The notes under the pieces: generated by a model | The model's input: the letters and a program-made list of their open reading frames with translations, nothing else | What the model was told of the DNA's origin: nothing | Databases searched by the model: none | Shown here: in pieces, positions 9,251 to 30,092 of the stretch | Layout of the letters: the number at the start of each line of letters is the position of its first letter | Numbering within the stretch: the first letter of the stretch is position 1 | Translations under genes and position numbers: made by a program | Origin: a virus | Taxonomy: Duplodnaviria > Heunggongvirae > Uroviricota > Caudoviricetes | IMG/VR virus record: IMGVR_UViG_3300050187_000003 | Location: 11,576-75,575 of that record | Direction: 5' to 3' (one strand) | DNA: 64,000 bases

Positions 9251-9311
9251 GACGCCTCGCTCTCCTGGTTAGACGGAGAGTCGAATCACCCGACTCCCCT
9301 TACGAAGGTTG

Positions 9312-9327: not shown

Positions 9328-9372
9328 GACGAATGTTGCTCGCCACGTGATGGCCACCCCGCGCCAAGGGAA

Positions 9373-9810: not shown

Positions 9811-9811
9811 C

Positions 9812-10511: not shown

Positions 10512-10521
10512 AGCGCCTGCC

Positions 10522-11205: not shown

Positions 11206-11214
11206 GGTTGCCTC

Positions 11215-12192: not shown

Positions 12193-12211
12193 CGGGGCTA
12201 CCTCAGCAGCC

Positions 12212-12682
12212 TCAGCAGCGTTCGAACCACAGCGCGGCCTGCACGTTCACCACGGCGGGCGCCGTGCAACGGATTACGAACCCGTTCGACACCGCACTGT
12301 CCGGGGTGTCGCCGAGCGGAAAATCGAGGATGACCAAACCGCCGTTGGGGGTGAGAGTCCAGTTGTCAACTGGCGTCAACACGGTCGGCTCCGCCGTCCA
12401 GTTCCGGGCCGCGGTGAATCCGGCCACGATCGACCGGCCGTACGCCTGCACAGGCGTGATGCTGGTGGAGTTGGTGCCGGGGCCGTTCGTAGCGAACGTC
12501 GCGACGCACAGCTCTACCAGCACCGGCACCGCCGACGCGGTCACACCGTCGAAACCGATGCGCAGCTTTTTCAGGTCGACGCCGAACGTTGACGGCGACG
12601 ACACACCAATGACGCTCTTCGCTGTCGCGGCGGACAGAGCGACCGTGGTGCCGGTGCTCGCAGTGTATCCAGCTTTAGCCAT
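12212..12682 (-). CDS. hypothetical structural protein (156 aa)
   Basis: Real start MAKAGYTAS... lies inside the longer ORF 12212..13456. Ser/Thr/Ala-rich beta-type sequence. Confidence 0.4.
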   Translation of the reverse strand: MAKAGYTASTGTTVALSAATAKSVIGVSSPSTFGVDLKKLRIGFDGVTASAVPVLVELCVATFATNGPGTNSTSITPVQAYGRSIVAGFTAARNWTAEPTVLTPVDNWTLTPNGGLVILDFPLGDTPDSAVSNGFVIRCTAPAVVNVQAALWFERC

Positions 12683-12750
12683 GATATGCCCATCTGTGGG
12701 TGTATCTCCCGGTCCGGCTGCGCAGCCGGACCGGGAGAGGAGCTGATCGG

Positions 12751-13335
12751 TCAGGTGATGATCACGCGCGGCACGAACGTCTTGGCGGTCGGCGTCGCGA
12801 TCGTGGCCGGCGCCGTGGTGGTCAGCGCCGACCCGGACGAGACGCTGAGGTTGCGCTCGCCGGTGACGACGGCGGGGTGGCCGATCGCCCCCAGCAGCGT
12901 GCACACCGACGTCGAGTTGACCATCACCGACGCCCAGTAGATGCCGGACGTGGTGATCGTCTGCGCTGTGGCGAGGGCGAGGGTCTTGGTGGTGTTCGCC
13001 GCCCACGCGGTCGAGGTCTGGTCGGCGGTCTGCGCGAGCAGCGCCGGCGTCGCCGCGCTGCTGAACAGGGCGAACCACCAGTTGGCGGGGGTTCCCACGG
13101 CGGTCGCCCCCGACCGGAAGGACAGGTTGGTGATGACGTCTCCGGCGTGAAGGTAGACCGCTACGGAGGTCATGACGGCGTCGGCCAGGGCGACGTGGCC
13201 GGTGTCGCCGGCGTCGTCGGTGAGGCCGGTCCGGGGCAGGTTGGACCGCCAGAAGGTGTCCGGCGACGCCGGGTCGGCAGCGTTGAGGTAGCCGAGGGCG
13301 TCGCGGATGTTGCGGGTGTAGCCACCGAGCTGCAT
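12751..13335 (-). CDS. hypothetical structural protein (194 aa)
   Basis: ORF with plausible protein-like sequence downstream of the capsid genes. The overlapping long ORF in the other frame (12212..13456 N-terminal part) is Arg/His-rich junk. Confidence 0.45.
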   Translation of the reverse strand: MQLGGYTRNIRDALGYLNAADPASPDTFWRSNLPRTGLTDDAGDTGHVALADAVMTSVAVYLHAGDVITNLSFRSGATAVGTPANWWFALFSSAATPALLAQTADQTSTAWAANTTKTLALATAQTITTSGIYWASVMVNSTSVCTLLGAIGHPAVVTGERNLSVSSGSALTTTAPATIATPTAKTFVPRVIIT

Positions 13336-13338
13336 CGC

Positions 13339-13701
13339 TCAGTCCTCCTTCGGGCCGAGGATCAGCTCGGCCAGCTCGTCGCGCTTGAACGCGGACGCAT
13401 CTTCGAGGGTGAGCCGCTTCTCGCCGGCCGCCTCGCTGGTCACGAACGCGACCCATGCGTCCTTGGTCGCACCCCGGGCCGGCGGCTCGACCTGCTCCGG
13501 CTCGACCTGCTCGGCGGCGACCGGTACCGGCTCCAGGGTGGTGACCGGCTCGACGCGGTAGTCCTTGCGGCGGAAGTAGGCGAGGGCCTTACGTCCGGCC
13601 GGCATACCGTCATCGACGGTCGCCTCACTCTTGGCGAACGCGACCCCCGCGACGACGCCGGTGAACTCCGGCGTCGGAGTGGTGACCTTGAACAGCGTCA
13701 T
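13339..13701 (-). CDS. hypothetical protein directly downstream of major capsid (head decoration candidate)
   Basis: MTLFKVTTPTPEFTGVVAGVAFAK... The ATG overlaps the capsid stop (ATGA). Confidence 0.4.
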   Translation of the reverse strand: MTLFKVTTPTPEFTGVVAGVAFAKSEATVDDGMPAGRKALAYFRRKDYRVEPVTTLEPVPVAAEQVEPEQVEPPARGATKDAWVAFVTSEAAGEKRLTLEDASAFKRDELAELILGPKED

Positions 13702-14762
13702 CACTGCACCTTGACCTTCCGGAGGACACCGCACGCCTTGGTGTTCTTCAGCACCAGGGCGACCGGACCCATCTCGACCTCGTAGGTCTTGTTCGCGCCC
13801 GGCTCGTTCATGCGCGGCATGTACGTTTCGACCAACGGCTTGCCCGCCACGGCCGCACCGTGAAGCGCGTCCATGCCGAACGTCGCCGCGTAGATGTCGG
13901 TCAGGCCGGTGATGGTGCTGCCGCCTCCACCTTCGTCGGCGTCGGCCGAGTAGATCGATACGATCGGGCTGGAGCCCTGCACGCCGTTGCCGAGGTCGAC
14001 CAGCGCCCAGTCGCCGTAGCGCTGGATCCGTCGGCCCAGGTCGTCCTTGTCCTCGGTGTAGAGGCCGGCCCAGCGGGCGAGGGCCCGGATCCGGGTGACG
14101 CTCTTGGTGTTGCCGAGGAGTGCCTTCTCGCCGGGTGGAACGACGCCAGGAGTGCCCTGGTCGCCGCCGCCGGTCTTGGACGGGGTGATCTCGGCCAACA
14201 TCTCGTCGAGCCGGTCCAGGGCGGCCATCGCAAGGGTCTGGCTGACGATGGTGCCGATGGTCCAGTCGAGGTAGCCGGCCGTGACCCCGTTGTCGAGGGG
14301 GTCGTACTCGGTGGTCGTGCCGGTCAGGCTCTTGTCGAGGCCGTCGAAGCCGAGCGCATTCACGGCGACATCGCCGTTGATCAGCTCCTCCTGCGCCTTC
14401 TGCTGCACCCCGGTGATGAGCTGCTGCATCTGGAACGTGGCTTCGTTCGTGGCGGCCTGGCCGAGGTTGGCCAGCACGCGGTCGACGTTGAAGGATCCGC
14501 CGAGGGGCTTGAGGTCGACGGTGTACCGCTCGCGCGCGGCCTGCCCCGGGGTGTACTCGGCGTTGATCGCCCGGAACTCGGCCCCGCGGGGGGTCGTGAG
14601 TCGGGTGTAGCCGTAGGTAAGGGTCGAGCCGCCGGTGGGGTTGACGGTGTCGTCCCAGACGATGCGGTCCAGAAGCCAGGAGTACCGCCGCAGGTTGTCG
14701 ATGACTGCGAATGCGACATCGTCCTGCACGTTCACCTGGGCCTGGGCGAGGGTGATAGCCAC
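13701..14762 (-). CDS. major capsid protein (HK97-fold type)
   Basis: 353 aa, positioned after the scaffold gene. Sequence features are typical of HK97-like capsid proteins (N-terminal delta-like region, ...GNTKSVTRIRALARWAGLYTEDK..., C-terminal ...PVALVLKNTKACGVLRKVKVQ). Confidence 0.65.
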   Translation of the reverse strand: MAITLAQAQVNVQDDVAFAVIDNLRRYSWLLDRIVWDDTVNPTGGSTLTYGYTRLTTPRGAEFRAINAEYTPGQAARERYTVDLKPLGGSFNVDRVLANLGQAATNEATFQMQQLITGVQQKAQEELINGDVAVNALGFDGLDKSLTGTTTEYDPLDNGVTAGYLDWTIGTIVSQTLAMAALDRLDEMLAEITPSKTGGGDQGTPGVVPPGEKALLGNTKSVTRIRALARWAGLYTEDKDDLGRRIQRYGDWALVDLGNGVQGSSPIVSIYSADADEGGGGSTITGLTDIYAATFGMDALHGAAVAGKPLVETYMPRMNEPGANKTYEVEMGPVALVLKNTKACGVLRKVKVQ

Positions 14763-14790
14763 GGTTGGCTACTCCTGTCCTGGTTGGTGG

Positions 14791-15414
14791 TTACTGCCCG
14801 TTGAGGCGGGCGGTGAGTGCGGCGCCGAGCGACGTGGGTCGCTGCCGACCGTTGTTGCCGCCGCCGTGGTCTGCCCCTTGGCGGGCCGGCCCTTGGCCTC
14901 CCGGGGCAGTGGCGGCGAGTTTCGGGTTGGCCTTGATGGCCTTCTTCATGGCGGCTACGACCTGGTCGTCGTAGTCGGCCGCCTCTGGGTCCAGCTCCTT
15001 GACGGTGTCGCGGAAGGTCGCGGAGTCGATGACGGCCACGGGGTCGGCGCCGGCCTTGTCGGCGTTCTCCCGTACGGCCAGCCTCAGGCTCTTGTCGCGG
15101 AACTTCTGGTCTTTCTGGTCCCGATCGGCTGCGGCGGTCTTGAGTTGTTCGGCCGGGTCTTCGTTGCCGCCGGGGGTGAGTCCGGCCGCTTTGAGGATCG
15201 CGTCGGTCCGCTCCTTGGCGGCCTTCGCCTCCGCCTTGGCTTTCTTCTCGGCTTCGCGGGCGGCGGCGATGCTGCGCTTGGCCCGGTCGGCGTCGAAGTC
15301 GCCATCGATCTTCGGCCCGTCGGCGGTGTCTGCGTCACTGCTGCCGGACTTACCGGCATCGTCGGAGCCTCCACCGTTGTCGCCAGGGTTGTCCGGATCA
15401 TCGTCGAGGTGCAT
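14791..15414 (-). CDS. capsid scaffolding protein
   Basis: 207 aa, highly charged and Ala/Lys/Glu/Asp-rich helical protein between the MuF-like and capsid genes. RBS AGGAGG upstream. Confidence 0.55.
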   Translation of the reverse strand: MHLDDDPDNPGDNGGGSDDAGKSGSSDADTADGPKIDGDFDADRAKRSIAAAREAEKKAKAEAKAAKERTDAILKAAGLTPGGNEDPAEQLKTAAADRDQKDQKFRDKSLRLAVRENADKAGADPVAVIDSATFRDTVKELDPEAADYDDQVVAAMKKAIKANPKLAATAPGGQGPARQGADHGGGNNGRQRPTSLGAALTARLNGQ

Positions 15415-15639
15415 CGATCGGCCTCCTTGAGGCGGTCGCGGGGTTGGGTGGTGCTTGCCGTGGCCTACCTTGAGGTCACGGAGACTCGTCGTCGGCCCGC
15501 GCGGCCGGGCCGACGCCCGGGGGCAGTGGGCGGTTCGGATCCACCGGCGGCCGGTGGTCGTAGCGTTGCGGCTGAGTGGGGGCGGCCTGTCGGCCCTGCG
15601 CCGACGTCGGCCGGTGACGGTCAGGATCAGCAGGGTTGG

Positions 15640-17544
15640 TCATGGTCGGGTCACCTCCACATCGACACGGCGGTACCCGTCCACCACACCATGATCGGCG
15701 ACCACGCGGTACCGCAGACCGCGCTCCAGCATGATTTCGGCCTCGGCGGCGACCTCGCGCGTGGACGCGTCGCCCAGGTCGGACAAGCGGATGGCGCCGG
15801 TGCCGCGGGGGACGAGGAGCCGCATCACGATGCCACCGCGGCCGGGCCCGCGTGGGTGGCCGAACCGTTCGGCGACGGCGGTGTCGGCGGTGCTGGATCC
15901 GTAGGCCCGGTCGGTCCACGTCCAGCCGGTGACGTCCTGGGTGGCCCAGTCCGCGCCGAACGCGGGGGTGGGTCGGAATCCGCGCTCGACGACGACGTCG
16001 CCGTTGAGGTGGGACGCGGCGAGGATGGCGTCCAGTGCGTCGACCTTCTCGGCGATCTCGGCGGTCGTGGCGGAGGCCCGGAGCTGGTCGTTGATGTCCT
16101 GGAACCAGGATCCGCGGTAGTCGGCGAGCGCGTAGGCGGCTGCCAGTCGGGGGCGGCGGTCGAGGCCACCGCCGAGGAGTTCGGGCGCTGGGCCGGTGGT
16201 GAGTCTGATCGGGGCGGTGTCCAGGGCTGCCTGGCGGGTGGCGGCGGCGGCGAACGGGTCGACTGGTGCGGGTGGCGGCGGGCGCGGTGTGACTGGTGCC
16301 GGTCGGGGCGGTGTGGGTGGCGTCAAGTCCTCGGCTTGGATGGGTGAGCCGGGTCCGCCGGTGAGCGGCCGGGGCTGCGAAACACCTGGGCCACCGGTGC
16401 GCGGGCCGGGGATGTTGCCGGCGCCGATCTGCTCGCGGTAGCTCAGCCGCTTCAGCTCGGGGTTGGCGGCGAGGTGCTTGCGCATCTCGCCCTGCCATGC
16501 GCGGACCTTCCCGCGTGCGCCCGCAGCGGCGGCCGGGTCCAGGGCGCTGGCTTCGCGTTCCTTCCACTTCCGGATGCCGCGCTCGATCTCGCGCTGCCGC
16601 TCCTTCGCCCGGTAGCCGTCCGGGTTCTCGGTCGGCCGAGTCGGCCGGCGGGTCGCACCGGGCAGAAACGCCCTGGCGGCATGTGAACAATTTGGGTGGA
16701 ATAGTCCAGCCGCGCGGGCCGCGGCCAGGCTGCCGGCGATGTCCACTGTGACCGTGCCGGCGCCCACCATCGAGGGCAGCTCCACCCGGCCCCGGATGCC
16801 GCCGGAGATGGAAAGGATCTTGCTTTCCCAGGGTCGACATTTTGGACATTCTCGGGGTGAATCGGACACGATGACCGTGTCCACACCGAGGCTGGTCAGC
16901 CGGTCCGTTTGGCCCTGCACAGCGGCCCGCTGCGTGACGGTCCGCGTGGCCATCTCCACATAGGAGGAGAGCCTCCACCGACGACCCGCGCTGTCGACGA
17001 AGGACGTGACACCCTGGTCGACCAGCCGCTGGTAGGCGTGCTGTGCGGCCTGCCTCCGGGTCTGCCCACCGGCGATGCTGACCGCGGTCGCCTGCTGGAT
17101 CACCTCGCGGTAGACGTCGAGCACGTGCCTGAGGACGTTGCTGTGCCGGGCCCCAATGTCGTCGACCAGGGCTGCGGCGAGGGACTCGACCGCAGCCACG
17201 CGGGGCACCTGCTGGATGACCGCGGCGAGCCGGCCCGCGTCCGGGTCACCGCGCAGCAGCGACGCCGGGAGGCCGACCGTGGCCAGGCCCTGCCCGGACC
17301 GGTAGGCGGCGGCGAGGGTGGACCGGATCTGGTCGGCGCCGGCCGCCTGGACGAGGCCGAGGACCCGCTCCGTTGCGGCGCGGAGGGTGGCCAGGGCGCC
17401 GAGTCGGGTGACGGCCCAGTCGGGTGCGTCCATGCCGGCCCGGAGCCGGCGGGTGATCTCCCGCAGGATCGCCTGCTCCGCCTCCTGGTAGAGACCGACG
17501 GTCGACGCCGTCACCGCTTCGATCTGGTCGCCGGTGAGCGCCAT
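15640..17544 (-). CDS. MuF-like minor capsid (head morphogenesis) protein fused to a C-terminal ADP-ribosyltransferase-like toxin domain
   Basis: MuF core segment ...RRWRLSSYVEMATRTVTQRAAVQGQTDRLTSLGVDTVIVSDSPRECPKCRPWESKILSI is followed by a Pro-rich linker. The C-terminal domain carries R/S/E-type ART motif candidates: YRGSW, YGSSTAD (STS-like) and AEAEIM (ExE-like). Confidence 0.55.
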   Translation of the reverse strand: MALTGDQIEAVTASTVGLYQEAEQAILREITRRLRAGMDAPDWAVTRLGALATLRAATERVLGLVQAAGADQIRSTLAAAYRSGQGLATVGLPASLLRGDPDAGRLAAVIQQVPRVAAVESLAAALVDDIGARHSNVLRHVLDVYREVIQQATAVSIAGGQTRRQAAQHAYQRLVDQGVTSFVDSAGRRWRLSSYVEMATRTVTQRAAVQGQTDRLTSLGVDTVIVSDSPRECPKCRPWESKILSISGGIRGRVELPSMVGAGTVTVDIAGSLAAARAAGLFHPNCSHAARAFLPGATRRPTRPTENPDGYRAKERQREIERGIRKWKEREASALDPAAAAGARGKVRAWQGEMRKHLAANPELKRLSYREQIGAGNIPGPRTGGPGVSQPRPLTGGPGSPIQAEDLTPPTPPRPAPVTPRPPPPAPVDPFAAAATRQAALDTAPIRLTTGPAPELLGGGLDRRPRLAAAYALADYRGSWFQDINDQLRASATTAEIAEKVDALDAILAASHLNGDVVVERGFRPTPAFGADWATQDVTGWTWTDRAYGSSTADTAVAERFGHPRGPGRGGIVMRLLVPRGTGAIRLSDLGDASTREVAAEAEIMLERGLRYRVVADHGVVDGYRRVDVEVTRP

Positions 17545-17548
17545 CGGG

Positions 17549-19165
17549 TCACTCCTCTACCGGCGGGCCTCCGCCTCCCTGCGGGTCGCCCGGGGGCGGG
17601 TTGTTGCCGGCCAGCGCACCCAACGCCGGGCCGACCTCCACCGTGGGCGGTGCGGCGTCGGCGATCCGGGCGACCTCCTCCCGGACCTGGATGTCGTCCC
17701 AGTCGGGGTGCACCATCCGCACGCGGGTCTCCGCTGAGACGGCCTCGGCGGCGTGGAGGAGTTGCAGGGTGCGCGCGACCGTCTCCGGCGTCTCACTGAC
17801 CGAGTCGCCGAACTCGACGTTCGGCCTGACCGGCTCCACTGCGGCGCCGAGCTGGGCGCGCTCCACGGCGAGGTGCAGCTCGACGTACTCCGCGATCGCC
17901 GGGCCCCAGGCGACGATCCGGTTGCCGCGGGTCGTGAAGCTCATGCGCTCGCGCGACTGGACCTCCGTCGCCGTCACCGCGACGTCGCCCTCGTCACCCA
18001 GGGTCTGCGAGGAGAGACCGGCGTGGCGCATCGCGACCTTGGTCAGTTCATCGATCGTGGCCCGGTGTTCTTCGACGCGGATGGCGAACTGGCTGATGGT
18101 GATGCCGGTGCCGCTGTCGGGTAGCGCGTTGACGGCGGCCCAGATTTCCCGTTCGGCGTCGAAGGTTGCGCCGGCACCGGGGCCGTTCGACTGGTGGAGC
18201 ATGTAGCTGGGGACGATGACTCGGCCGCGGCCGAGGCGCAGGTCCCGCATCCAGGACGTCCACGCCTCGTCGACCGCATCGAACCACTGCTCGGATCCGT
18301 CGAAGTCGCTGCGGCCCAGGTACTTCAGCATCGGCGCGGTGCGCCAGCGGCGTTGTGGGCCGGAGTTGGGGACGCGGACGACGTCCAGGCGATCGAGGCC
18401 GGTCGCCTGGCTGCTGTCCTGGTCGACATCCTCGGCGAGGTAGGAGGCGCCGTCGTGCTCGGTCAGCGGAATCGCGCGGCCGAGCTGGTCGGGGGTGCCC
18501 TCGTGGAGCTGGTAGACGATCCGGCCGACGCCGTTGATGACCTCGTGATGTTCAAGCAGGCGGACGACGGTGTTGCCGGAGCGGTCCAGCTCGGACCAGA
18601 AGGTGACGTCGATCAGCTTGCCCCAGCGCAGGTTTGGCAGGGCGCCGTCGGCGTGCACGACGCTGGGGAATGCTTTGTTCGACATCACCTCCTTGTCGAC
18701 GACCGGGCGGAGGTAGACGTCGCCGAGCACGCTGTTGGCCTCGGCAGCGTGCAACAGCAGGGAGTGCAGGCCGTCCTCGATCAGCTCATCGAGGCGGGTC
18801 TGAACCTCGGCGTCCTCGTGCGTGATCTGCGGCGGCTCGGAGAAGATCAGGTTGGCGACGGTGGCGGTGAGGTCGGCGGGGAGTGGGCAGTGCAGGCGGG
18901 CGTCGCGGGTGCCGACGGGTGGTGGGTTGCCCCACAGCCAGCGTGACAGGGTGCCGATGAGTCCGCCGGCGTACTGGCCGGCACGGACGCGTTCGCTTGG
19001 GCTGAGGGTGCGGTTGTTGGCTGCCCGGTTGAGGTACACCTCGCGGAGCCGGTCGGGGTCGCCGACGTACCACGCATCCCAGTCGCGGTAGGCGGTGTAG
19101 GCGGGTTGGTGGGCGGGTGGCGGCCAGGCGCCGCCGGTCGGGATCGGCACCGGGCCTCCATCCAA
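17549..19165 (-). CDS. portal protein
   Basis: 538 aa between the terminase large subunit and the MuF-like gene. Size and position are typical of a portal. Confidence 0.65.
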   Translation of the reverse strand: MDGGPVPIPTGGAWPPPAHQPAYTAYRDWDAWYVGDPDRLREVYLNRAANNRTLSPSERVRAGQYAGGLIGTLSRWLWGNPPPVGTRDARLHCPLPADLTATVANLIFSEPPQITHEDAEVQTRLDELIEDGLHSLLLHAAEANSVLGDVYLRPVVDKEVMSNKAFPSVVHADGALPNLRWGKLIDVTFWSELDRSGNTVVRLLEHHEVINGVGRIVYQLHEGTPDQLGRAIPLTEHDGASYLAEDVDQDSSQATGLDRLDVVRVPNSGPQRRWRTAPMLKYLGRSDFDGSEQWFDAVDEAWTSWMRDLRLGRGRVIVPSYMLHQSNGPGAGATFDAEREIWAAVNALPDSGTGITISQFAIRVEEHRATIDELTKVAMRHAGLSSQTLGDEGDVAVTATEVQSRERMSFTTRGNRIVAWGPAIAEYVELHLAVERAQLGAAVEPVRPNVEFGDSVSETPETVARTLQLLHAAEAVSAETRVRMVHPDWDDIQVREEVARIADAAPPTVEVGPALGALAGNNPPPGDPQGGGGPPVEE

Positions 19166-19212
19166 GTCAGGCCAGGCTGGCCAGGGTCAGCGGGTTGACC
19201 GCGCACGCGTCA

Positions 19213-19479
19213 TCAGACGCGCGGCGGCCAGTGCCAGCTACCACCGGCCGGGGCGTCCGAATCGTCGAACGGCACCGACTGGTTGAAGAACAGGCCGGTC
19301 GGGTTGAGGACGCACAGGTCGACGTGCGGCACACCGTGCTCCGGCACCGGGTCTCCGTCGCGGACGGCGGTGACGATCGCGGCCCGGGGCTCCGAGGTGA
19401 ACGCCTGGGTGCCGTCCGGGCGTGGCGGGGTGCCGTGGCTGACGTATTGGACGATCCGGCCGACGGTCGGCTTCTGCAC
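19213..19479 (-). CDS. hypothetical protein (88 aa)
   Basis: Small ORF between the terminase large subunit and portal genes. Confidence 0.3.
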   Translation of the reverse strand: MQKPTVGRIVQYVSHGTPPRPDGTQAFTSEPRAAIVTAVRDGDPVPEHGVPHVDLCVLNPTGLFFNQSVPFDDSDAPAGGSWHWPPRV

Positions 19480-19495
19480 GTGGTGCTCCTTCGGG

Positions 19496-20785
19496 TCAGG
19501 CCGCGAGGGTGACGGCGCTCCGGAGCAGCGGCCGCCAGAGCACTTCGGGCGTTTTTATGGCATATCTAGCAGCATCGATGCTGTGGTCGTCTGCCTTGAT
19601 CGGGGCGTCTGAACCGTCCCGGTCGACGGCCTTGTCATCCCAGGCGTAGCCGGGGATCTCTTCGATCAGGCCCTTGCATGACTGGTGCACGCGGAGCTGG
19701 TCGTTGCCGAGCAGGCTCGACATGAGCCGGATCCCGTCGAGGACGGAGTTGTCGGCGGCCGCCGAGGTCATGCCGTCCTCGATCAGCTGGAGCCGCAGCG
19801 ACCGGGCGGACGGGTCGACAACGGTCCACTCCGGGGCCAGGCCGGTGAGCCCGGTCGTGCCGGGCACTTCCAGGGCGCCGAGCCAGCGGCGGAGTTCGCG
19901 GGAGAGGCCGCGGTCGGTGAGCTGGCGGCGGGCGATGGCCGGGTCGTGCCGCCACTCGTGGGTCAGGTAGAGCCGTCCGTCGCGGCCGGCGCCGAGGATG
20001 AGGGCGGCGGTGGCGTTGCGGGTGCCGTAGTCGATGCCGATGCTGATCCAGCGGTGGATTTCCGGCAGGACTGGGATGACGTGGCGGTCTTCGTCCCACA
20101 TGTCGAAGACGGCGCCTTCGGCCTGGACCCAGTTGCCGAGGATGAACCGCTTGTACCACAGGCCGACGTACTCGATCTTGAGGTCGGCGACGTACGCGGG
20201 GTCGAGGTGCGGGTTGTCGTCGAGGGTGCTGTGCCAGGTACGCAGGTTCAGCTCGCCGACGCGTTGCAGGTACTTCTTGCGGAGCCAGTGGGCTGGGCTG
20301 TCGGGGTTGGTGGTGCCGAACAGCTGCGCGCCGGCCACGCTCAGCCGGGCGAGGACCTGGGTGAAGAACGCCTCCGGGATGGTGGTCAGTTCGTCGCCGT
20401 AGGCCAGGCACAGCGTCATGCCCCGGACCTTCGGCTCCGCCTTCGCGTCGTTGGCGCCCAGGACGTCGACCTCGCGGCCGAGGATGGTGCCGGTGGGTGC
20501 GCCCGTATTGTACCTGGTCAGCCTGGCCAGGGGGCCGAACAGGGCCGGGTCGGTGAGCACGGAGAACACGTTTCGGTTGACGGCCTCGCGGGTCTTGCCG
20601 AAGAGCAGGACCCTGCCCGATGTCGGCGCGGCGGCGACGGCGAGCAGGAACCGCAGCAGCGACGCGACCGTCTTGCCGGACCTGACCGAGCCCTGCCAGA
20701 TGTTGAGGCGGGCCGTGGACTCGACCACCGAGCGGAGGTGGATCGGGGACAGCGACCGGGTGACGACGTCGAGGTCAACCGGCAT
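19496..20785 (-). CDS. terminase large subunit
   Basis: Walker A WQGSVRSGKT lies near the N-terminus, with the ATPase and C-terminal nuclease-type regions after it. The likely start MPVDLDVV... is internal to ORF 19496..20869, which would otherwise overlap the small subunit by about 95 nt. Confidence 0.65.
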   Translation of the reverse strand: MPVDLDVVTRSLSPIHLRSVVESTARLNIWQGSVRSGKTVASLLRFLLAVAAAPTSGRVLLFGKTREAVNRNVFSVLTDPALFGPLARLTRYNTGAPTGTILGREVDVLGANDAKAEPKVRGMTLCLAYGDELTTIPEAFFTQVLARLSVAGAQLFGTTNPDSPAHWLRKKYLQRVGELNLRTWHSTLDDNPHLDPAYVADLKIEYVGLWYKRFILGNWVQAEGAVFDMWDEDRHVIPVLPEIHRWISIGIDYGTRNATAALILGAGRDGRLYLTHEWRHDPAIARRQLTDRGLSRELRRWLGALEVPGTTGLTGLAPEWTVVDPSARSLRLQLIEDGMTSAAADNSVLDGIRLMSSLLGNDQLRVHQSCKGLIEEIPGYAWDDKAVDRDGSDAPIKADDHSIDAARYAIKTPEVLWRPLLRSAVTLAA

Positions 20786-25121: not shown

Positions 25122-25997
25122 TCACGCAGCTACTCCTGACCTGCACCCGTACGGCGAACAGCCGTCCGGATCGCCCAGCTCAGCGAGAGCATCGAAAATG
25201 TCCGGAGACCGGTCGGACCACTCCTTGCGCGTGACCCGGTTGATCGGTGCGATGGACAGCGGCACCCGAGACCGGTGCAGAAAAGCTTCTCCGTTGAGAG
25301 GCAGACCACGTGCCCCCCCCTTTCGGATTGCCTCATCGAACGCAACCGCGTCGGCCCACTCGTCTGGGTGGTTGTCGCGTAGATCCCTCCACTGGGCGTT
25401 GCCGTGGAACGGGCATCCGATGCAGGCTGACTTGGCGGTATCGCCCCAACCTCTGGCGTCAAGCCACCGCTGGCAGTCCTTGCGGGACATGCCGAGGTCA
25501 AGCAGCGGGTACCGCTTGGTGATGTAGGAGACGCCGTGGTTGTCGGATACGCGATGAATTTCGTCGACGGTGAAGCCGATCCATTGTTCGGCGGTACGCC
25601 CCTTGGGCACGCGCCTGAAGTCGGGGGCTGCAGCGCCGAGAAGCTCGCGGACCTTTCGACCGATCGGTGCCAGCTTGTACTCCGATGTGCACTGTCTGCG
25701 TCCCATGCCTTCGCTTCCGTCGGGGTTCCGGACAAAGTAGGGCACGGACGCGTACCGGTGGGCCGGGTCGAGCGAGTCGAAGCGCAGGTTGCCTTTGCTG
25801 ACTCGGTAAAGGGGGATGTTGGCTGCGTCGAGGACGGCGGCGATGCGGTCGAGTTGCTGGTAGACGCGGCGTGGCTCCCAGCCGGTGTCGGCGAAGATTG
25901 CGCCGTCCAGGCCGGGCAGGGTGCCGTCGGCGGCCATGAGCGCCAGCACGGTGCTCTGTACGCCGGCGCCGAGGGACAGGAGTCGGGTGGTGGTCAC
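25122..25997 (-). CDS. PAPS-reductase-like PP-loop ATP pyrophosphatase family protein (phage type, Cys-rich C-terminal region)
   Basis: N-terminal P-loop-like segment LLSLGAGVQSTVLALMAA (the SGGxDS-type position) and Cys motifs (CIGCPFH; CSPYGC). This family recurs in actinophage early regions. Confidence 0.5.
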   Translation of the reverse strand: MTTTRLLSLGAGVQSTVLALMAADGTLPGLDGAIFADTGWEPRRVYQQLDRIAAVLDAANIPLYRVSKGNLRFDSLDPAHRYASVPYFVRNPDGSEGMGRRQCTSEYKLAPIGRKVRELLGAAAPDFRRVPKGRTAEQWIGFTVDEIHRVSDNHGVSYITKRYPLLDLGMSRKDCQRWLDARGWGDTAKSACIGCPFHGNAQWRDLRDNHPDEWADAVAFDEAIRKGGARGLPLNGEAFLHRSRVPLSIAPINRVTRKEWSDRSPDIFDALAELGDPDGCSPYGCRSGVAA

Positions 25998-26245
25998 GCT
26001 GCTACCTCCTTCGGGGGTGCGGCCGGTGCGGCGAGTTGGTCGTGTTCGGGGCGTCCCGCCTCAGCCGCAGGCGTGTGGTCGGGGCAGCGGGGGCCGCACG
26101 GAAACAGCCGGGCCGGACCGTGGCAGTGGTCGTAGGCGCACACCAGTGCAGGCTTCGGCGGCCGGGCCGGGCCGGAACCGGTGTGCGCCGTGGTGGGCTG
26201 TCTGCGGCTTCGGGCCTCAGCCAACGACACCACCCGGCCCGTCAC
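25994..26245 (-). CDS. small Cys/His-rich protein (zinc-binding candidate)
   Basis: CAYDHCHGPARLFPCGPRCPDH. Start and stop are coupled (ATGA overlaps) to both neighbouring genes. Confidence 0.3.
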   Translation of the reverse strand: MTGRVVSLAEARSRRQPTTAHTGSGPARPPKPALVCAYDHCHGPARLFPCGPRCPDHTPAAEAGRPEHDQLAAPAAPPKEVAA

Positions 26246-26499
26246 GCCGCCACCCCCGACGGCTGGACCCGCACATCAGCCGGGCACTGCTCGTCCAACC
26301 AGCACAACACCCGTACCAGCGTCGACTGGTTGTATCCCCTGCCCGCCTCGAACCGGGACAACGCTGCCTGTGACACACCGATCTGGTCGGCAGCCTCGTA
26401 CTGGGTCAGGCGGAGAATCGCGCGCATGTCGGCGACCAGCAGGGGCAGCCGGTCGAGAACATCGGTGACGTTTCGGTAGCCGACGGCCTGGACGCTCAC
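26242..26499 (-). CDS. XRE-family HTH regulator
   Basis: GTG start preceded by GGGAGGTG. HTH segment LRLTQYEAADQIGVSQAALSRFEAGRGYNQSTLVRVL. Confidence 0.5.
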   Translation of the reverse strand: MSVQAVGYRNVTDVLDRLPLLVADMRAILRLTQYEAADQIGVSQAALSRFEAGRGYNQSTLVRVLCWLDEQCPADVRVQPSGVAA

Positions 26500-26681
26500 G
26501 CCGGCACCTCCCGCCGGGTCTCGTGGTGGGGCGGGCATTCGACCGAATGCCCGCAAGGGTGACCGATCGACAACACCAGGCCGTCACGGGCGGCGATCCG
26601 GGTGCCATCTGCGGAGAGCGTGACTGTCCGGCCTTCGCGGACGAAGAAGTCCGTGGCGAGCCAGTTCCAGCAGACCAACAT
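26496..26681 (-). CDS. small hypothetical protein (about 61 aa)
   Basis: MLVCWNWLATDFFVREGRTVTLSADGTRIAARDG... Its start overlaps the upstream stop and its stop overlaps the next GTG start, so it sits in a chain of translationally coupled genes. Confidence 0.25.
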   Translation of the reverse strand: MLVCWNWLATDFFVREGRTVTLSADGTRIAARDGLVLSIGHPCGHSVECPPHHETRREVPA

Positions 26682-27439
26682 CACGCCACCGCCGACGGCC
26701 GTGGCGACACGAACCGGGCCAACTCGAACTGGGCAACCACCCCGCTCACCTCGCCGCGCCGACCCGCGCGGGCCTTCGCCACAACCAGGTTGTCCCGGTT
26801 CGTAGATGCGAACCGGGACAGCATCACCACGGCGTCGGAAATCTCGGCCATCTGCCGCGACGGCAGATGATGCAGCATCGGGTGGCGCCATGCGTCGCGG
26901 ACCTGAGTGGTGACTACTACTGCGGCGTCCTTACTGTTGGCGATCTTCCGCAGCTCCTCTACGGCTTCGTAGCTGCGGAAGAAGGGGCTGTCCACGGCGA
27001 TGAGCCGGGCAGACGACTCGCGGACGAACCCCATGACGGTGGCTGCCGTCCGCGCCTCAATGACGGCGAGCGGGGCGGCGTTCCACGCAGGCTGCGCGGC
27101 GTGTAGACGCGTCGCCTCGGCCACGTCGGGTGCCGTCGTGTTCGGTACCGGCACCTCGGCCATGCCGGCGAGGATCCGGTTGTCTCGCTGAACGGGGTTG
27201 TACTCGCCGTCGATCAGCAGCGTAGGCACCCCCCGGTTGACGGCGTTGGCGCGGACGATCGTGTCGACCAGGGTGGTCTTTCCGGAGGCTGCGGATCCGG
27301 CGATCAGGTTGACGGTGCCGGGCCGGAAGCCACCGCCGAGGAGCGCGTCGAGCTCGGGCAGGCTGGTGGTGTAGCGATCAGGGGTCATGACAGTTCTCCT
27401 CGGGGCGGGGGTTGATGGGGTGGGGTAGGCGGTCATCAC
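26681..27439 (-). CDS. RecA-like / DnaB-C-terminal-like ATPase (KaiC/RadA superfamily)
   Basis: Walker A LIAGSAASGKTTL and Walker-B-like LLIDGEYNP. Lies directly downstream of DnaB. Confidence 0.45.
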   Translation of the reverse strand: MMTAYPTPSTPAPRRTVMTPDRYTTSLPELDALLGGGFRPGTVNLIAGSAASGKTTLVDTIVRANAVNRGVPTLLIDGEYNPVQRDNRILAGMAEVPVPNTTAPDVAEATRLHAAQPAWNAAPLAVIEARTAATVMGFVRESSARLIAVDSPFFRSYEAVEELRKIANSKDAAVVVTTQVRDAWRHPMLHHLPSRQMAEISDAVVMLSRFASTNRDNLVVAKARAGRRGEVSGVVAQFELARFVSPRPSAVA

Positions 27440-28767
27440 ACGATCGCCATGTCCACGAACCGCGACTTGTCCAGCTGTGCGGCGACTGTGACCTTGCCTT
27501 TGGTCGCCGACCGGGCTTTCAGGACAAAGACGTCGGCTTCGCCCATGCGTGGCGATTCGTGGTCGTAGTAGTCAGGCCGGTACAAGCCCAAGACCACGTT
27601 CGACGCATTGGCGATCGCCCGTGACCCACGCAGGTCACCTAGCTGTGGTTCTTTGTCCGTGCGGGTGTCGGCGTTGCCGTTGGCCTGGGAGGCTGCGATC
27701 ACGGGAACGTCGAGGTTGCCGGCCATGTTTTTCAGCCCTTGGCTGACGTCGCTGATCTGTTCCTGTTCGGTGTTGCCCCGCTTTGACGGCCGCACCAGCT
27801 GGTTGTAGTCGACGATCACCGCGTCCAAGCCGTGCTTGGCCGCTAGGACCCGGCAGTAGCCTTCCATCTGCTTGACGGTGATCTCGGACTGGTCGCACAG
27901 GAACAGCGGCGCTGTCGACATGGGGCCGAGGACGTTCGACATCCGCGACCAGTGGCGTTCGTCGAGGTCGCCGTCGCGAATGAAGCGGTAGGGGACGCCG
28001 GACTCTGCCGACAGGATGCGTTCGAACAACTCGTCGCAGGCCATTTCGAGGCTGAAGTGGGCCACCGTGTACTTTTTCTTGATCGACAGGTGCCGGGAGA
28101 TGTCGGTGAGGAAGAGCGACTTTCCGCCGCCGGTAGGCGCGACAACGGTGATCAGCTGCTTCTTCCGCAGCCCACCCAACATCTTGTCCAGGTCGATGAA
28201 CCCAGTCGGTAGGCCAGCGGGTGTGTCTTTGCGTTGCTCGATCGCGTCCAGGCGGTCGTTGACGAGTTCCCCCAACTGGACCATGACGCCGTTGGTGTTG
28301 CGGACTGGCCGGATCTGCTGGATGAGTTCCTCTGCCAGCGTGTGGGCCTGCTCCGATGTCCACCCTGAGGAGGTGGCGGCGTTGGTGATGCGGATACCGG
28401 CGGCCTGTAGGCGGCGGCGGGTCGCCATCTCCAAGACCCGGTCGACGTAGTAGCCGGCCTGCGCGACGGTCGGTACTGCGGCGACGCATCTGTGCAGGAA
28501 AAGCACGCCTCCGTCGTATGCGCCGAGTAGCCCTTGGTCGGCGAGGAACCCAGCCAGCGCCACTGGTTCGGTGGGAACACCGGATTCGTGCGCGGAGACG
28601 ATGTGCTCAAACAGGGTGCCGTGCCGGGGCTGGTAGAAGTCGATCGACCCGAGTTTGACGGCGACATCGTTGACGAGGCTGCTGTCAAGCATGAGCGTAC
28701 CGAGAATGATGCGTTCGGCGGCGATGTCGAAGGCCGGGGCTGCTTCAACGGTGTCGGTAGCGGTCAT
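27436..28767 (-). CDS. dnaB: replicative DNA helicase DnaB
   Basis: 443 aa. N-terminal DnaB domain, Walker A VVAPTGGGKSLFL, and motifs ...AHFSLEM..., ...VIVDYNQL..., ...IAASQANGNADTR... typical of DnaB. Confidence 0.75.
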   Translation of the reverse strand: MTATDTVEAAPAFDIAAERIILGTLMLDSSLVNDVAVKLGSIDFYQPRHGTLFEHIVSAHESGVPTEPVALAGFLADQGLLGAYDGGVLFLHRCVAAVPTVAQAGYYVDRVLEMATRRRLQAAGIRITNAATSSGWTSEQAHTLAEELIQQIRPVRNTNGVMVQLGELVNDRLDAIEQRKDTPAGLPTGFIDLDKMLGGLRKKQLITVVAPTGGGKSLFLTDISRHLSIKKKYTVAHFSLEMACDELFERILSAESGVPYRFIRDGDLDERHWSRMSNVLGPMSTAPLFLCDQSEITVKQMEGYCRVLAAKHGLDAVIVDYNQLVRPSKRGNTEQEQISDVSQGLKNMAGNLDVPVIAASQANGNADTRTDKEPQLGDLRGSRAIANASNVVLGLYRPDYYDHESPRMGEADVFVLKARSATKGKVTVAAQLDKSRFVDMAIV

Positions 28768-30092
28768 CGGGTCTCCTGGGGTAGCGGTGTTTCGCGGCCA
28801 GCGGCGATGGTGCGGGCGTAGTCGGCGAGTTGGTCCGCGGTCAGCCCGCGCTGGTAGAGGGCGCCGAACTGAGCGGTGATTTTCATCAGGTCGTCAACGC
28901 TGTGCCGGCCGGGGGCGACTTGTCGCCAAGCGGTTACGGCGGCGGCGACGGCCGGGTGGGTGCGTTCCCGGACTCGGATTGGCAGGCTGCTGCCGGTGCG
29001 GCAGAGCGGGCACAGCAGCAGGCCGGTGGTGGGGTGGGGGGTTTCACCGGCTGCGGTGCCGTGTTTGCAGTCAGGGTGGGTGCTTTGAAGTCTGAGGATC
29101 TGTTGTTCGAGCTGTTTGGCGCGGTTTTTGCGGATTTCATCGTAGATGGGGGTGAAGCTGCGGTTGCTGGTCATGGTTCGCAGGTAGCTGGCGTTGACGC
29201 GGGTGCCGTAGCGGTTGAGGACGGCGCGGTGGACGGCGGTGGCGTCGTCGGCGGTGGCTTCGGGGTGGCCGGCGGCGTGGAGCCCGTTGAGGATGATCTG
29301 GGTGGCTTGGGGTAGCTGGCTGATGGTTTTGGGGAACAGTGCTGGCTGGCGTCCTCGGTAGGGCTTGTTGAGGGGCGCTACGGGGGGTGTTGGTTTGCGT
29401 TCTGTGTTGGCGGGCTTGTTGGTTGGGTTGGCTGCCGGCGTCGGTGGGGTGGGGGGTTGTGAAGGTTCTCCGCGCAGCGCCGACGGTGTTGGTTCAAGGT
29501 TTAAAAACCTAGAAAAAGGAGAAGGCTCCCCCGTTAGTCCGCCAGGCGGACTAGTTTGGTCCGCCTGGCGGACTAAGGTTTCGTCATCTTGGTCCGCCAG
29601 GCGGACTAACGTTAGTCCGCCTGGCGGACTAACAGGGGCCTCATCTTGGTCCGCCAGGCGGACTAGGTCATCGACGAGCTTCAGGTTCGGACGTCCAGAA
29701 CGCCGTAACGCTCCGTCTACATTTGGTCCGCCTGGCGGACTGGCCTTCGGGGCCTTCCGGCGAGACGAACGCTTCGGCAACGTCACCTCGGCCTCGCCGA
29801 CCGACAGCTGATACCCCGACCGCGCCGTTGCCCCGTCCGCCACCCGCCGAACCCACCCGGCAGCCGTCAACACCTTCATCCACTCGGCAACCGACGACCG
29901 AGCCACCCCGGTCATCGACGCCAGTTGGTCGAGTGTCGGAGCATGGCTCAGCGGAACCTCGGCGGTGCTGGCCACGGACCGGCACAGCAGCGTCAGCATG
30001 ATCAGCCTGCCGGTGCCGTCAATGGAGGACGTGAACACTGCCGATTCCACCTCCCATCTGGTTGTCAAAGGGGGTCTCCTGCTGCTCGTCAT
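28764..30092 (-). CDS. replication initiator protein (N-terminal wHTH; iterons embedded in coding sequence)
   Basis: HTH segment LDQLASMTGVARSSVAEWMKVLTAAGWV. The internal repeated peptide motifs (PPGGLT / LVRLADQ) are encoded by the 15-bp palindromic iterons. Upstream of dnaB, analogous to lambda O/P. Confidence 0.5.
   Translation of the reverse strand: MTSSRRPPLTTRWEVESAVFTSSIDGTGRLIMLTLLCRSVASTAEVPLSHAPTLDQLASMTGVARSSVAEWMKVLTAAGWVRRVADGATARSGYQLSVGEAEVTLPKRSSRRKAPKASPPGGPNVDGALRRSGRPNLKLVDDLVRLADQDEAPVSPPGGLTLVRLADQDDETLVRQADQTSPPGGLTGEPSPFSRFLNLEPTPSALRGEPSQPPTPPTPAANPTNKPANTERKPTPPVAPLNKPYRGRQPALFPKTISQLPQATQIILNGLHAAGHPEATADDATAVHRAVLNRYGTRVNASYLRTMTSNRSFTPIYDEIRKNRAKQLEQQILRLQSTHPDCKHGTAAGETPHPTTGLLLCPLCRTGSSLPIRVRERTHPAVAAAVTAWRQVAPGRHSVDDLMKITAQFGALYQRGLTADQLADYARTIAAGRETPLPQETR
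29495..29745. repeat. origin of replication: AT-rich block plus six copies of the 15-bp palindromic iteron GTCCGCCWGGCGGAC
   Basis: Seen directly. Copies at 29537, 29559, 29592, 29615, 29649 and 29726, with conserved flanks TTRGTCCGCC...GGACTAA. AT-rich GGTTTAAAAACCTAGAAAAAGGA at 29495-29520. Confidence 0.7.

What the first reader, a model, noticed from the sequence alone, without database searches (positions are those of the whole stretch)
25122..25997. PP-loop (PAPS-reductase-like) enzyme plus a distal TGT/DpdA-like gene: possible 7-deazaguanine-type DNA modification
A PAPS-reductase-like PP-loop protein sits at 25.1-26.0 kb. A TGT-superfamily protein with a C-terminal Cys/His zinc-site-like cluster sits at 51.3-52.2 kb. 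DpdA-type transglycosylases together with PP-loop/QueC-like enzymes are the hallmark of phage 7-deazaguanine DNA modification, which works as an anti-restriction measure. The two genes lie about 25 kb apart in the same early transcription unit. The PP-loop gene heads a chain of four translationally coupled genes: HTH, small ORF, Cys/His protein, PP-loop.
Basis: inference. Interest (0 to 1): 0.6.

Follow-up and report, generated by a model that had tools for sequence, protein, structure and literature searches.

The report
Two unrelated phage DNA-modification genes

Summary
ORF 25122-25997(-) encodes a 291-aa PP-loop protein of the phage "PAPS reductase-like" family (PHROG_424, E 7e-46). ORF 51264-52208(-) encodes a 314-aa DpdA (Pfam PF23859, E 1e-42) with a TGT fold, conserved Asp residues and a Cys/His zinc site.

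The proposed link between them is not supported.
- The PP-loop protein is not QueC-like. Its nearest profiles and folds are SspD/DndC, APS/PAPS reductases and Fe-S tRNA thiolases; QueC ranks far lower.
- No FolE, QueD, QueE or QueC gene was found among the ORFs scanned.
- Within 10 kb of 80 viral PAPS-like loci there is no PF23859 DpdA. Only 1 of 80 DpdA loci carries a PAPS-like gene.
- The PAPS-like gene more often sits beside DNA methyltransferases. This DpdA clade recurs beside Mom and N4/N6 methyltransferases.

The window holds a temperate siphovirus prophage of a Micromonosporaceae-like host. It carries an orphan DpdA, a class already described, one member of which (phage Orion) showed no modified DNA. 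It also carries an independent, highly conserved sulfur-transfer-type PP-loop gene of unproven function.

Both are new members of known kinds; interest is low. A minority of phages place PAPS-like genes next to TGT-like genes, and that lead remains open.

The parts
25122..25997 (-). 291-aa PAPS-reductase-like PP-loop protein with a probable Fe-S site. Invariant Cys at 103, 175, 192, 195, 280 and 285; motifs SLGAGVQS and DTGWEP; low-confidence (probably flexible) Cys-bearing C-terminal tail.
51264..52208 (-). 314-aa DpdA-family DNA guanine transglycosylase. It is an orphan: no preQ0 synthesis genes were found nearby.
   Evidence: Pfam PF23859 E 1e-42 and PHROG_1279. TGT/DpdA fold. D68, S69, D238, C256, C274, C277 invariant and H258 nearly invariant. 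Identical protein P0121 in another assembly.
25994..26245 (-). 83-aa Cys/His small ORF (CAYDHCH...PCGPRCPDH). Its stop overlaps the PAPS-like start (GTGA). It is not conserved next to PAPS-like genes elsewhere.
   Evidence: Only one weak tblastn hit in the 84 fetched loci, and none of the window's neighbouring genes recur next to PAPS-like genes.
26242..26538 (-). HTH_3 / MqsA-like DNA-binding protein. Its stop overlaps the start of the 83-aa ORF.
   Evidence: Pfam HTH_3 E 3e-6; junction sequence.
26681..28767 (-). Replication module upstream of the chain: DnaB helicase (27436-28767) and a DnaB_C/RecA-like ATPase (26681-27439), joined by GTGA overlaps.
   Evidence: PHROG_19 E 2e-93; Pfam DnaB_C; junctions.
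29529..29742 (.). Six copies of the palindrome TAGTCCGCC(A/T)GGCGGACTA in a gene-poor gap. It is a likely operator or iteron array lying between the DpdA block and the replication/PAPS block.
   Evidence: the repeat finder family D1 and inverted repeats I1-I14.
53441..55727 (.). Lysogeny switch that marks the prophage end: cro-like HTH (53441-53719, -), repressor (53845-54273, +) and large serine integrase (54270-55727, -). DpdA is the sixth gene of the leftward early array.
   Evidence: PHROG_95 integrase E 2e-58 and repressor hits. Pfam Resolvase/Recombinase and HTH on the identical contig.
2976..20785 (-). Virion module showing that this is a siphovirus prophage: terminase, portal, head morphogenesis, major head, connectors, major tail, chaperone, tape measure, minor tail.
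   Evidence: PHROG hits.

Best explanation
The window holds most of an integrated temperate siphovirus. Its nearest relatives occur in Micromonosporaceae genomes. The phage carries two independent single-gene accessory cassettes of the DNA-modification / anti-restriction type.

(1) An orphan DpdA sits in the immediate-early array, about 1.2 kb downstream of the cro-like gene. It is a TGT-fold base-exchange enzyme. If it is active, it would swap guanines in phage DNA for a 7-deazaguanine base that the host must supply, because no precursor-synthesis gene was found in the phage.

(2) A PAPS-reductase-like PP-loop protein ends the replication-gene chain. Its six invariant cysteines suggest an Fe-S cluster plus a catalytic thiol on a flexible C-terminal tail. 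It most resembles sulfur-handling PP-loop enzymes: SspD/DndC of DNA phosphorothioation, APS/PAPS reductases, and Fe-S tRNA thiolases. The most likely role is a stand-alone sulfur-transfer or redox step acting on nucleic acid or on a sulfonucleotide. That step would help the phage evade phosphorothioate-based or other host restriction.

Shown here: gene identities, folds, conserved residues, genomic positions, and the lack of co-occurrence. Inferred: enzymatic activity, substrates, and the anti-defence role.
For: Identities and folds.

Prophage layout.

No Que genes among the 69 ORFs scanned.

Independence of the two genes:
- 80 IMG/VR PAPS-like loci (+-10 kb) contain no PF23859-type DpdA at E<1e-5. 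Only 1 of 80 DpdA loci (L234) holds a PAPS-like gene.
- The complete phages NS-I, prophi91-1 and PotPie, and the early regions of phiT45-1 and prophiGD21-3, have the PAPS-like gene without DpdA.
- About 400 mycobacteriophage records have this DpdA type, whereas every mycobacterial PAPS-like record listed comes from M. abscessus.
- The window's neighbours of the PAPS-like gene recur in none of 84 loci.

Mosaic behaviour:
- In a related Micromonospora prophage the 87%-identical PAPS-like gene follows a C5 methyltransferase in the early slot where this window has DpdA.
- A methyltransferase lies within 4 kb in 27 of 80 PAPS-like loci.
- Of five DpdA-clade contexts examined, three (Asanoa, M. zingiberis, M. 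pisi) place it beside Mom, two of those also beside an N6_N4 methyltransferase. None of the five has Que genes or PAPS_reduct within 10 kb.

Literature:
- The largest group of DpdA phages encodes DpdA only. DNA of phage Orion, a member of that group, had no 7-deazaguanine (PMC6884629).
- Phage PAPS reductases are described as DndC/SspD homologues in anti-defence hotspots. One is reported to promote evasion of host Dnd (PMC13551039).
- The M. abscessus prophage homologues are noted as DndC-like early genes (PMC8092301).
Against: - No activity has been measured for either protein.
- The PAPS-like gene has no DndA/D/E or SspA/B/C partners in the window, so a phosphorothioation role would need host components.
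- The loop SLGAGVQS lacks the Asp of the ATP-pyrophosphatase PP-motif. From memory, it resembles the PAPS-reductase variant, which also fits a plain sulfur-assimilation role.
- A minority of loci do place a PAPS-like gene within 4 kb of a TGT-like gene. These are L072 (PHROG_887, E 2e-41), L234, and phage Aoka plus four IMG/VR loci carrying the Aoka gp40-like family.
- The co-occurrence tests saw only +-10 kb around each gene, while the window's pair is 25 kb apart.
- The prophage runs off the left edge of the window, so late-region genes are unseen.
Confidence: 0.65

Rival explanations
1. The PAPS-like PP-loop enzyme and DpdA cooperate in a 7-deazaguanine-type DNA modification. For example, the PP-loop enzyme activates or converts the base before or after DpdA inserts it.
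For: - Both genes are in one prophage on the same strand.
- PP-loop enzymes (QueC, Gat-QueC) do act in known pathways (PMC6884629).
- PAPS-like genes sit within 4 kb of TGT-like or putatively TGT-like genes in L072, L234, phage Aoka, L023, L026, L033 and L036. One other contig carries both genes about 12 kb apart, seen as L011 and L184.
Against: - The protein is not QueC-like by Pfam, loop motif or structure rank.
- No FolE, QueD or QueE gene was found to make a deazapurine substrate.
- 75 of 80 PAPS-like loci and 79 of 80 DpdA loci lack the partner within 10 kb.
- Several complete phages have one gene without the other.
- The gp40-like family is not demonstrably TGT-like here: no Pfam hit, and hhalign probability 12%.
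- None of the three term searches of the library that combined PAPS reductase with DpdA or 7-deazaguanine returned a paper linking the two families.
Confidence: 0.1
2. The PAPS-like gene is a true auxiliary metabolic gene. It would be a CysH-type (P)APS reductase that boosts host sulfate assimilation during infection, unrelated to DNA.
For: - The best Foldseek hits are CysH PAPS reductases.
- The DTG...E motif and the SxGxxQS loop resemble PAPS reductases (the comparison is from memory).
- An NrdH-like glutaredoxin lies near the gene in 6 of 80 loci.
- Virome papers treat phage PAPS reductase as an AMG (PMC13369170).
Against: - The Pfam PAPS_reduct score is below the family cut-off.
- The C-terminus is GCSPYGCRSG rather than the ECG[LI]H catalytic motif (motif recalled from memory).
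- The SspD profile scores higher than PAPS_reduct, 48 against 16 bits, though the two come from different libraries.
- The gene sits among early replication and modification genes and is often next to DNA methyltransferases or DUF5131.
- It keeps 77-92% identity across actinobacterial genera in mobile contexts.
Confidence: 0.12
3. DpdA here is inactive in practice, or has a non-deazaguanine role, because the host supplies no preQ0. Phage DNA would then be unmodified by it, as in mycobacteriophage Orion.
For: - Orion encodes DpdA only and its DNA had no 7-deazaguanine. Mycobacteria lack the preQ0 pathway (PMC6884629).
- No Que genes were found in the window, or within 10 kb of the five DpdA homologues examined.
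Against: - The catalytic Asp and zinc-site residues are strictly conserved across the clade, which implies selection for activity.
- The clade is embedded in modification islands with Mom and methyltransferases.
- The preQ0 status of the host is unknown.
Confidence: 0.3

Closest known systems
Phage DpdA of the 'DpdA-only' group (e.g. Mycobacterium phage Orion, Salmonella phage 7-11; Hutinet et al. 2019, PMC6884629)
   Same: - It matches the Pfam DpdA family and has the TGT fold.
- The Asp residues and zinc site are conserved.
- It is encoded in a phage early region without FolE, QueD, QueE, QueC or an amidotransferase.
   Different: - It shares only 38% identity or less with mycobacteriophage DpdAs.
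- It belongs to an actinobacterial clade found in prophages and other mobile elements, often next to Mom and N4/N6 methyltransferases.
- Its modification status is unknown.
Bacterial Dpd system (DpdA-DpdB-DpdC plus restriction genes)
   Same: The DpdA-type transglycosylase fold; 7ui4 is among the structural matches.
   Different: - No PADLOC Dpd hit for this protein.
- No ParB-like DpdB or DUF328 DpdC was found in the window.
- The context is a phage, not a defence island.
Actinobacteriophage 'PAPS reductase-like domain protein' (PHROG_424; M. abscessus prophage gp20/gp23, Nocardia phage NS-I, Gordonia phage PotPie gp2)
   Same: - It shares 50-69% identity over the full length.
- It has the same invariant Cys set.
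- It occupies an early or replication-region position.
   Different: Only the local neighbours differ. Some homologues carry a DnaJ-type zinc-ribbon insert.
SspD / DndC (PAPS-reductase-family PP-loop proteins of DNA phosphorothioation)
   Same: - The profile match to SspD covers residues 6-226.
- Several conserved cysteines are compatible with an Fe-S cluster such as the one DndC carries (PMC8569181).
   Different: - It is stand-alone: no SspA/B/C or DndA/D/E is found nearby.
- The loop lacks the canonical SGGxDS sequence.
- No evidence exists for phosphorothioate in this phage's DNA.
QueC (7-cyano-7-deazaguanine synthase)
   Different: - No Pfam QueC match.
- The loop motif and the cysteine pattern differ.
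- Twenty-seven other PP-loop structures rank higher.

Membership tests
DpdA (Pfam PF23859) / TGT superfamily | Profile match above the curated threshold | tested here: met
   146.4 bits against a cut-off of 27, E 1.1e-42, residues 50-321. PHROG_1279 E 9e-46.
DpdA (Pfam PF23859) / TGT superfamily | TGT-type barrel fold | tested here: met
   AF2 pLDDT 84. Foldseek gives Z. mobilis TGT at E 1e-6, probability 1.00, and DpdA 7ui4 at E 8.6e-6.
DpdA (Pfam PF23859) / TGT superfamily | Catalytic Asp pair and Cys/His zinc site | tested here: met
   D68-S69, D238, C256, C274 and C277 are invariant and H258 nearly invariant in 35 homologues. Equating them with TGT Asp102/Asp280 and the TGT zinc ligands rests on motif position; it was not checked in 3-D.
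Phage 7-deazaguanine DNA-modification pathway (DpdA + FolE/QueD/QueE/QueC +/- amidotransferase) | Co-encoded preQ0 synthesis genes | tested here: not met
   None found among the 69 ORFs scanned with PHROGs, Pfam or NCBIfam. The prophage part beyond the left window edge is unseen.
Phage 7-deazaguanine DNA-modification pathway (DpdA + FolE/QueD/QueE/QueC +/- amidotransferase) | 7-deazaguanine nucleosides in virion DNA | not testable with these tools
   This needs LC-MS/MS. The DpdA-only phage Orion was unmodified (PMC6884629).
QueC | QueC profile match and SGGxDS PP-loop | tested here: not met
PAPS/APS reductase (CysH, Pfam PF01507) | Profile match above the curated threshold | tested here: not met
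   16.1 bits against a cut-off of 22.5, N-terminal 63 residues only.
PAPS/APS reductase (CysH, Pfam PF01507) | PP-loop alpha/beta fold similar to CysH | tested here: met
PAPS/APS reductase (CysH, Pfam PF01507) | C-terminal ECG[LI]H catalytic cysteine motif (recalled from the literature) | tested here: not met
   The C-terminus is ...DPDGCSPYGCRSGVAA with invariant C280 and C285. It is a Cys-bearing low-confidence tail, but with a different motif.
SspD/DndC (DNA phosphorothioation) | Profile similarity to SspD/DndC | tested here: met
   PADLOC SspD PDLC02782, E 3.1e-13, 48 bits, residues 6-226. PADLOC has no curated threshold.
SspD/DndC (DNA phosphorothioation) | Partner genes (cysteine desulfurase, DndD/SspC ATPase, DndE/SspB) | tested here: not met
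   No such hits among the window ORFs scanned. None recurs among neighbours in 84 loci.
SspD/DndC (DNA phosphorothioation) | Phosphorothioate linkages in DNA | not testable with these tools
   This needs iodine cleavage or LC-MS of PT dinucleotides.
Phage PAPS reductase-like family (PHROG_424) | Profile match and full-length homology to annotated phage members | tested here: met
   PHROG_424 E 7.4e-46. 50-69% identity over at least 97% of the length to NS-I, prophi91-1, PotPie and Aoka proteins.

The most novel reading that the evidence does not exclude
A subset of actinophages may couple a PAPS-reductase-like sulfur-transfer PP-loop enzyme with a TGT-superfamily transglycosylase to install a base modification that has not yet been described. 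A thio- or otherwise sulfur-derived purine analogue is one possibility.

This would explain two things:
- orphan DpdAs persist with intact catalytic residues in hosts that may lack preQ0;
- three different TGT-like subfamilies are each found at least once within 4 kb of a PAPS-like gene (L072, L234, and the Aoka gp36/gp40 type loci).
Probability: 0.08. Interest if true: 0.7.

Novelty: new member of a known kind. Interest (0 to 1): 0.22.

Why it matters
The evidence instead shows two already-catalogued accessory gene families sharing one mosaic prophage.

Two useful points remain.
- Phage "PAPS reductase" genes are widely scored as sulfur-metabolism AMGs in viromes. Here the gene behaves like a single-gene DNA-modification or anti-defence cassette: it often sits next to methyltransferases, it is SspD-like, and its fold is closest to Fe-S thiolases. 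That argues against reading it as plain metabolism.
- Orphan DpdAs in Actinobacteria still lack a known substrate source. This open question was already raised in 2019.

Tried and rejected
- Megablast of both regions against phage genomes found no match.
- NCBIfam gave nothing for either protein.
- Single-sequence and profile searches of the PDB with DpdA gave no significant hit.
- The PAPS-like profile hit only one PDB entry, 21fy 'PptA', at E 1.4e-4. Four literature searches for PptA did not identify it.
- I could not confirm that the Aoka gp40-like family (PHROG_15826, named 'DpdA-like' in GenBank) is TGT-like.
  - There was no Pfam hit and no TGT or DpdA hit in the PDB.
  - hhalign against DpdA gave probability 12% over 49 N-terminal columns that include the WA-D-(S/N)-G motif. 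I left this as inconclusive.
- Promoter and terminator scans of 24.5-44 kb found no more sites than shuffled sequence.
- Piel et al. 2022, cited for a phage PAPS reductase that counters Dnd, could not be read. That claim rests on the citing paper.
- I considered a DndC-type system and a Dpd defence island, and rejected both for lack of partner genes.
- I considered the chain HTH > Cys/His ORF > PAPS-like as an operon-level system, and rejected it because none of those neighbours recurs in 84 loci.

Full report
**Setting**

The window is about 68% G+C and almost every gene is on the minus strand. Read in that direction, the landmarks are:
- a large serine integrase (54270-55727), a divergent repressor (53845-54273) and a cro-like HTH gene (53441-53719);
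- a long array of early genes that includes a Gp3-like recombination directionality factor (44524-45624), an exonuclease, RusA, WhiB, a beta-clamp, DnaQ-like exonuclease and DnaB;
- then terminase, portal, major head, connector, major tail, chaperone, tape-measure and minor-tail genes.

This is a temperate siphovirus prophage. No lysis cassette was seen and tail genes reach the left edge, so the prophage probably continues beyond coordinate 1. The 56-64 kb stretch beyond the integrase looks like a different element. The closest protein relatives come from Micromonospora, Asanoa, Krasilnikovia and Actinoplanes.

**Observation**

ORF 25122-25997(-) is a 291-aa protein with a GTG start behind a GAAGGAGG ribosome-binding site.
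- It matches PHROG_424 'phosphoadenosine phosphosulfate reductase' at E 7e-46.
- Its Pfam PAPS_reduct score is only 16 bits, below the 22.5-bit cut-off.

ORF 51264-52208(-) is a 314-aa protein.
- It matches Pfam DpdA (PF23859) at E 1e-42.
- An identical protein and gene call exist in another assembly.

Four-nucleotide GTGA overlaps join HTH > 83-aa Cys/His ORF > PAPS-like. The same overlaps join DnaB > DnaB_C-like > 62-aa ORF. The PP-loop gene is the last gene of its chain, not the first. A single transcription unit spanning 25 kb is not shown: a gene-poor 2.4-kb gap lies between the two genes and holds six copies of the palindrome TAGTCCGCC(A/T)GGCGGACTA (29529-29742).

**The DpdA**

The AF2 model (pLDDT 84) matches Z. 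mobilis tRNA-guanine transglycosylase structures (E about 1e-6, probability 1.00). It also matches the solved 'DNA preQ0 insertase DpdA' 7ui4. D68-S69 and D238 are invariant across 35 homologues of 38-74% identity. They lie at positions expected for the two catalytic aspartates.

No FolE, QueD, QueE, QueC, amidotransferase or QueF-like gene was found among the 69 ORFs scanned. Those scans covered nearly all called ORFs of 100 aa or more.

Hutinet et al. (PMC6884629) describe this situation as their largest group. Seventy-six phages encode DpdA only, and the paper calls their modification status 'difficult to predict'. Of the two tested, Orion had no 7-deazaguanine, because neither the phage nor M. 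smegmatis makes preQ0. Salmonella phage 7-11 had only trace dADG.

I examined five homologues of this DpdA clade in bacterial genomes.
- In Asanoa siamensis and Micromonospora zingiberis the gene order is Mom, N6_N4 methyltransferase, DpdA, and the DpdA start overlaps the methyltransferase stop.
- In M. pisi, DpdA has Mom two genes downstream.
- The two Nocardia contexts show neither.
- None of the five has Que genes or a PAPS_reduct gene within 10 kb.

**The PP-loop protein**

More than 5,600 homologous clusters exist. Identity is 77-92% across genera as distant as Micromonospora and Rhodococcus.

Alignment shows the motifs S-x-G-x-G-V-Q-S and D-T-G-W-E-P, and six invariant cysteines at 103, 175, 192, 195, 280 and 285. 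The last two lie in a low-confidence C-terminal tail.

Structure comparisons place the protein among sulfur-handling PP-loop enzymes.
- Foldseek puts CysH PAPS reductases, LarE, GMP synthase and TrmU on top.

PADLOC gives a match to SspD, the PAPS-reductase-family protein of the Ssp phosphorothioation system (E 3e-13, residues 6-226). The only PDB sequence relative is an entry named PptA (21fy, E 1.4e-4), which I could not trace in the literature.

The protein is therefore a sulfur-handling type of PP-loop enzyme, probably with an Fe-S cluster. It is not a QueC.

**Are the two genes linked?**

I fetched 80 IMG/VR loci around PAPS-like genes, 80 around DpdA genes of this type, and 75 around the short 'DpdA-like' family of Arthrobacter phage Aoka gp40. 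Each locus has up to 10 kb of flank. I scanned them with HMMs built here.

| Locus set | Partner sought within 10 kb | Loci with partner |
|---|---|---|
| 80 PAPS-like | PF23859-type DpdA (E<1e-5) | 0 |
| 80 PAPS-like | PHROG_887 TGT-like gene | 1 (L072, 0.9 kb downstream) |
| 80 PAPS-like | Aoka gp40-like gene | 4 |
| 80 DpdA | PAPS-like gene | 1 (L234) |
| 75 gp40-like | PAPS-like gene | 1 |

One contig carries both genes about 12 kb apart (seen as L011 and L184).

Complete genomes and early regions give the same picture.
- NS-I, prophi91-1 and PotPie, and the early regions of phiT45-1 and prophiGD21-3, have the PAPS-like gene and no DpdA.
- Aoka has the gp40-like gene 1.3 kb away.
- In the phage database the 63 PAPS-like records and the 27 gp40-like records share only Aoka. 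About 400 DpdA records are M. smegmatis phages, and those do not appear in the PAPS-like list.

The window's own neighbours of the PAPS-like gene (the HTH gene, the Cys/His ORF and the 448-aa ORF) recur in none of the 84 loci. After dereplication into 57 groups, the most frequent neighbours are a DNA methyltransferase (10 groups), a DUF4326-like protein by motif recognition (9 groups) and DUF5131 (7 groups). A methyltransferase lies within 4 kb in 27 of 80 loci.

In a related Micromonospora prophage the 87%-identical gene follows a C5 methyltransferase a few kb from the integrase. That is the slot where this window has DpdA.

Both genes therefore behave as independent, mobile, single-gene cassettes of the early DNA-modification region. 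The few adjacencies to TGT-like genes could simply reflect that shared neighbourhood. I could not show enrichment over chance. I also could not confirm that the gp40-like family is TGT-like.

**Mechanism**

DpdA most likely performs post-replicative base exchange of guanine for a host-supplied 7-deazaguanine. If the host makes no precursor, it would do nothing.

The PAPS-like protein most likely carries out a cysteine- and Fe-S-dependent sulfur-transfer or redox step. The literature describes phage PAPS reductases as DndC/SspD homologues that sit in anti-defence hotspots. One paper cites work in which a phage PAPS reductase promoted evasion of a host Dnd system (PMC13551039). The M. abscessus prophage homologues, 53-55% identical to this protein, were noted as DndC-like early lytic genes (PMC8092301). 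Other authors treat such genes as sulfur-metabolism AMGs (PMC13369170) or leave the function open (PMC11437467). NrdH-like glutaredoxins near the gene in 6 of 80 loci fit thiol-redox chemistry. All activity statements here are inferences.

**Verdict**

There is a bona fide DpdA, so deazaguanine modification is possible. The PP-loop gene is not part of a recognised or statistically supported partnership with it.

Both genes are new members of known kinds. Interest is low. One modest open lead remains: the minority of actinophage loci where PAPS-like and TGT-like genes are adjacent.

Noticed in passing
window 29529-29742: Six copies of the palindrome TAGTCCGCC(A/T)GGCGGACTA, spaced 22-77 nt apart. 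They lie in a 2.4-kb gene-poor gap just upstream (minus-strand sense) of the DnaB-to-PAPS-like gene chain. This is a likely operator or iteron array, possibly the phage origin or a middle-operon control region.
   Followed up: partly
window 38921-40036 (-): A DUF5131 protein (Pfam E 3.6e-81). It also hits the PADLOC candidate-defence models PDC-M41B and PDC-M30B, and weakly hits 'radical SAM mobile pair protein A'. DUF5131 is the immediate upstream neighbour of PAPS-like genes in 7 of 57 dereplicated loci elsewhere.
   Followed up: partly
window 56500-64000: The stretch beyond the serine integrase looks like a separate mobile element. It holds an RlaP-type nucleotidyltransferase (56805-57485), a primase/helicase-like protein (58378-59811), a primase-like protein (59811-60641) and a C5 DNA methyltransferase (63129-63845).
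   Followed up: no
L004 27570-28604 (Aoka gp36) and protein P0013: Some PAPS-like homologues carry an insert with two CxxCxGxG (DnaJ-type zinc-ribbon) motifs at the same position, after about residue 91 of the window protein.
   Followed up: no
window 25122-25997 and its homologues: The PAPS-like protein keeps 77-92% identity across genera (Micromonospora, Krasilnikovia, Actinoplanes, Rhodococcus), while its flanking genes are not conserved at all. That is unusually strong conservation for a phage accessory gene.
   Followed up: partly
L241 8089-11233; L246 8035-11236; L247 10001-13645: In Micromonosporaceae genomes this DpdA clade recurs next to a Mom-family gene. In L241 and L246 an N6_N4 methyltransferase lies between them and its stop overlaps the DpdA start, forming small DNA-modification islands.
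   Followed up: partly
L072 10001-12657; L234 446-3252; L023, L026, L033, L036; L004 27570-30518: A minority of viral loci place a PAPS-like gene within 4 kb of a TGT-like gene (PHROG_887 in L072; PF23859 type in L234) or of the Aoka gp40-like family (PHROG_15826, called 'DpdA-like' in GenBank). I could not establish whether this exceeds chance.
   Followed up: partly
PDB entry 21fy chain C ('PptA'): This is the only solved-structure sequence relative of the PAPS-like family (profile E 1.4e-4, covering the CxxC region). I could not find its publication or function.
   Followed up: partly
window 21305-21380 (-): A tRNA-Val (anticodon AAC) lies between the small-terminase-region ORF and the MerR/T5orf172-like gene.
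   Followed up: no
L245 13608-13865 and 5 other PAPS-like loci: An NrdH-like glutaredoxin is encoded close to the PAPS-like gene in 6 of 80 loci. prophiGD21-3 also has a cysteine dioxygenase-like gene two genes upstream.
   Followed up: no
window 22400-25150: Long overlapping ORFs occur in several frames, and a 448-aa Ala/Pro/Asp-rich ORF (23584-24930) has no homologue in any library searched. The overlapping ORFs are most likely high-GC artefacts around one orphan gene.
   Followed up: no
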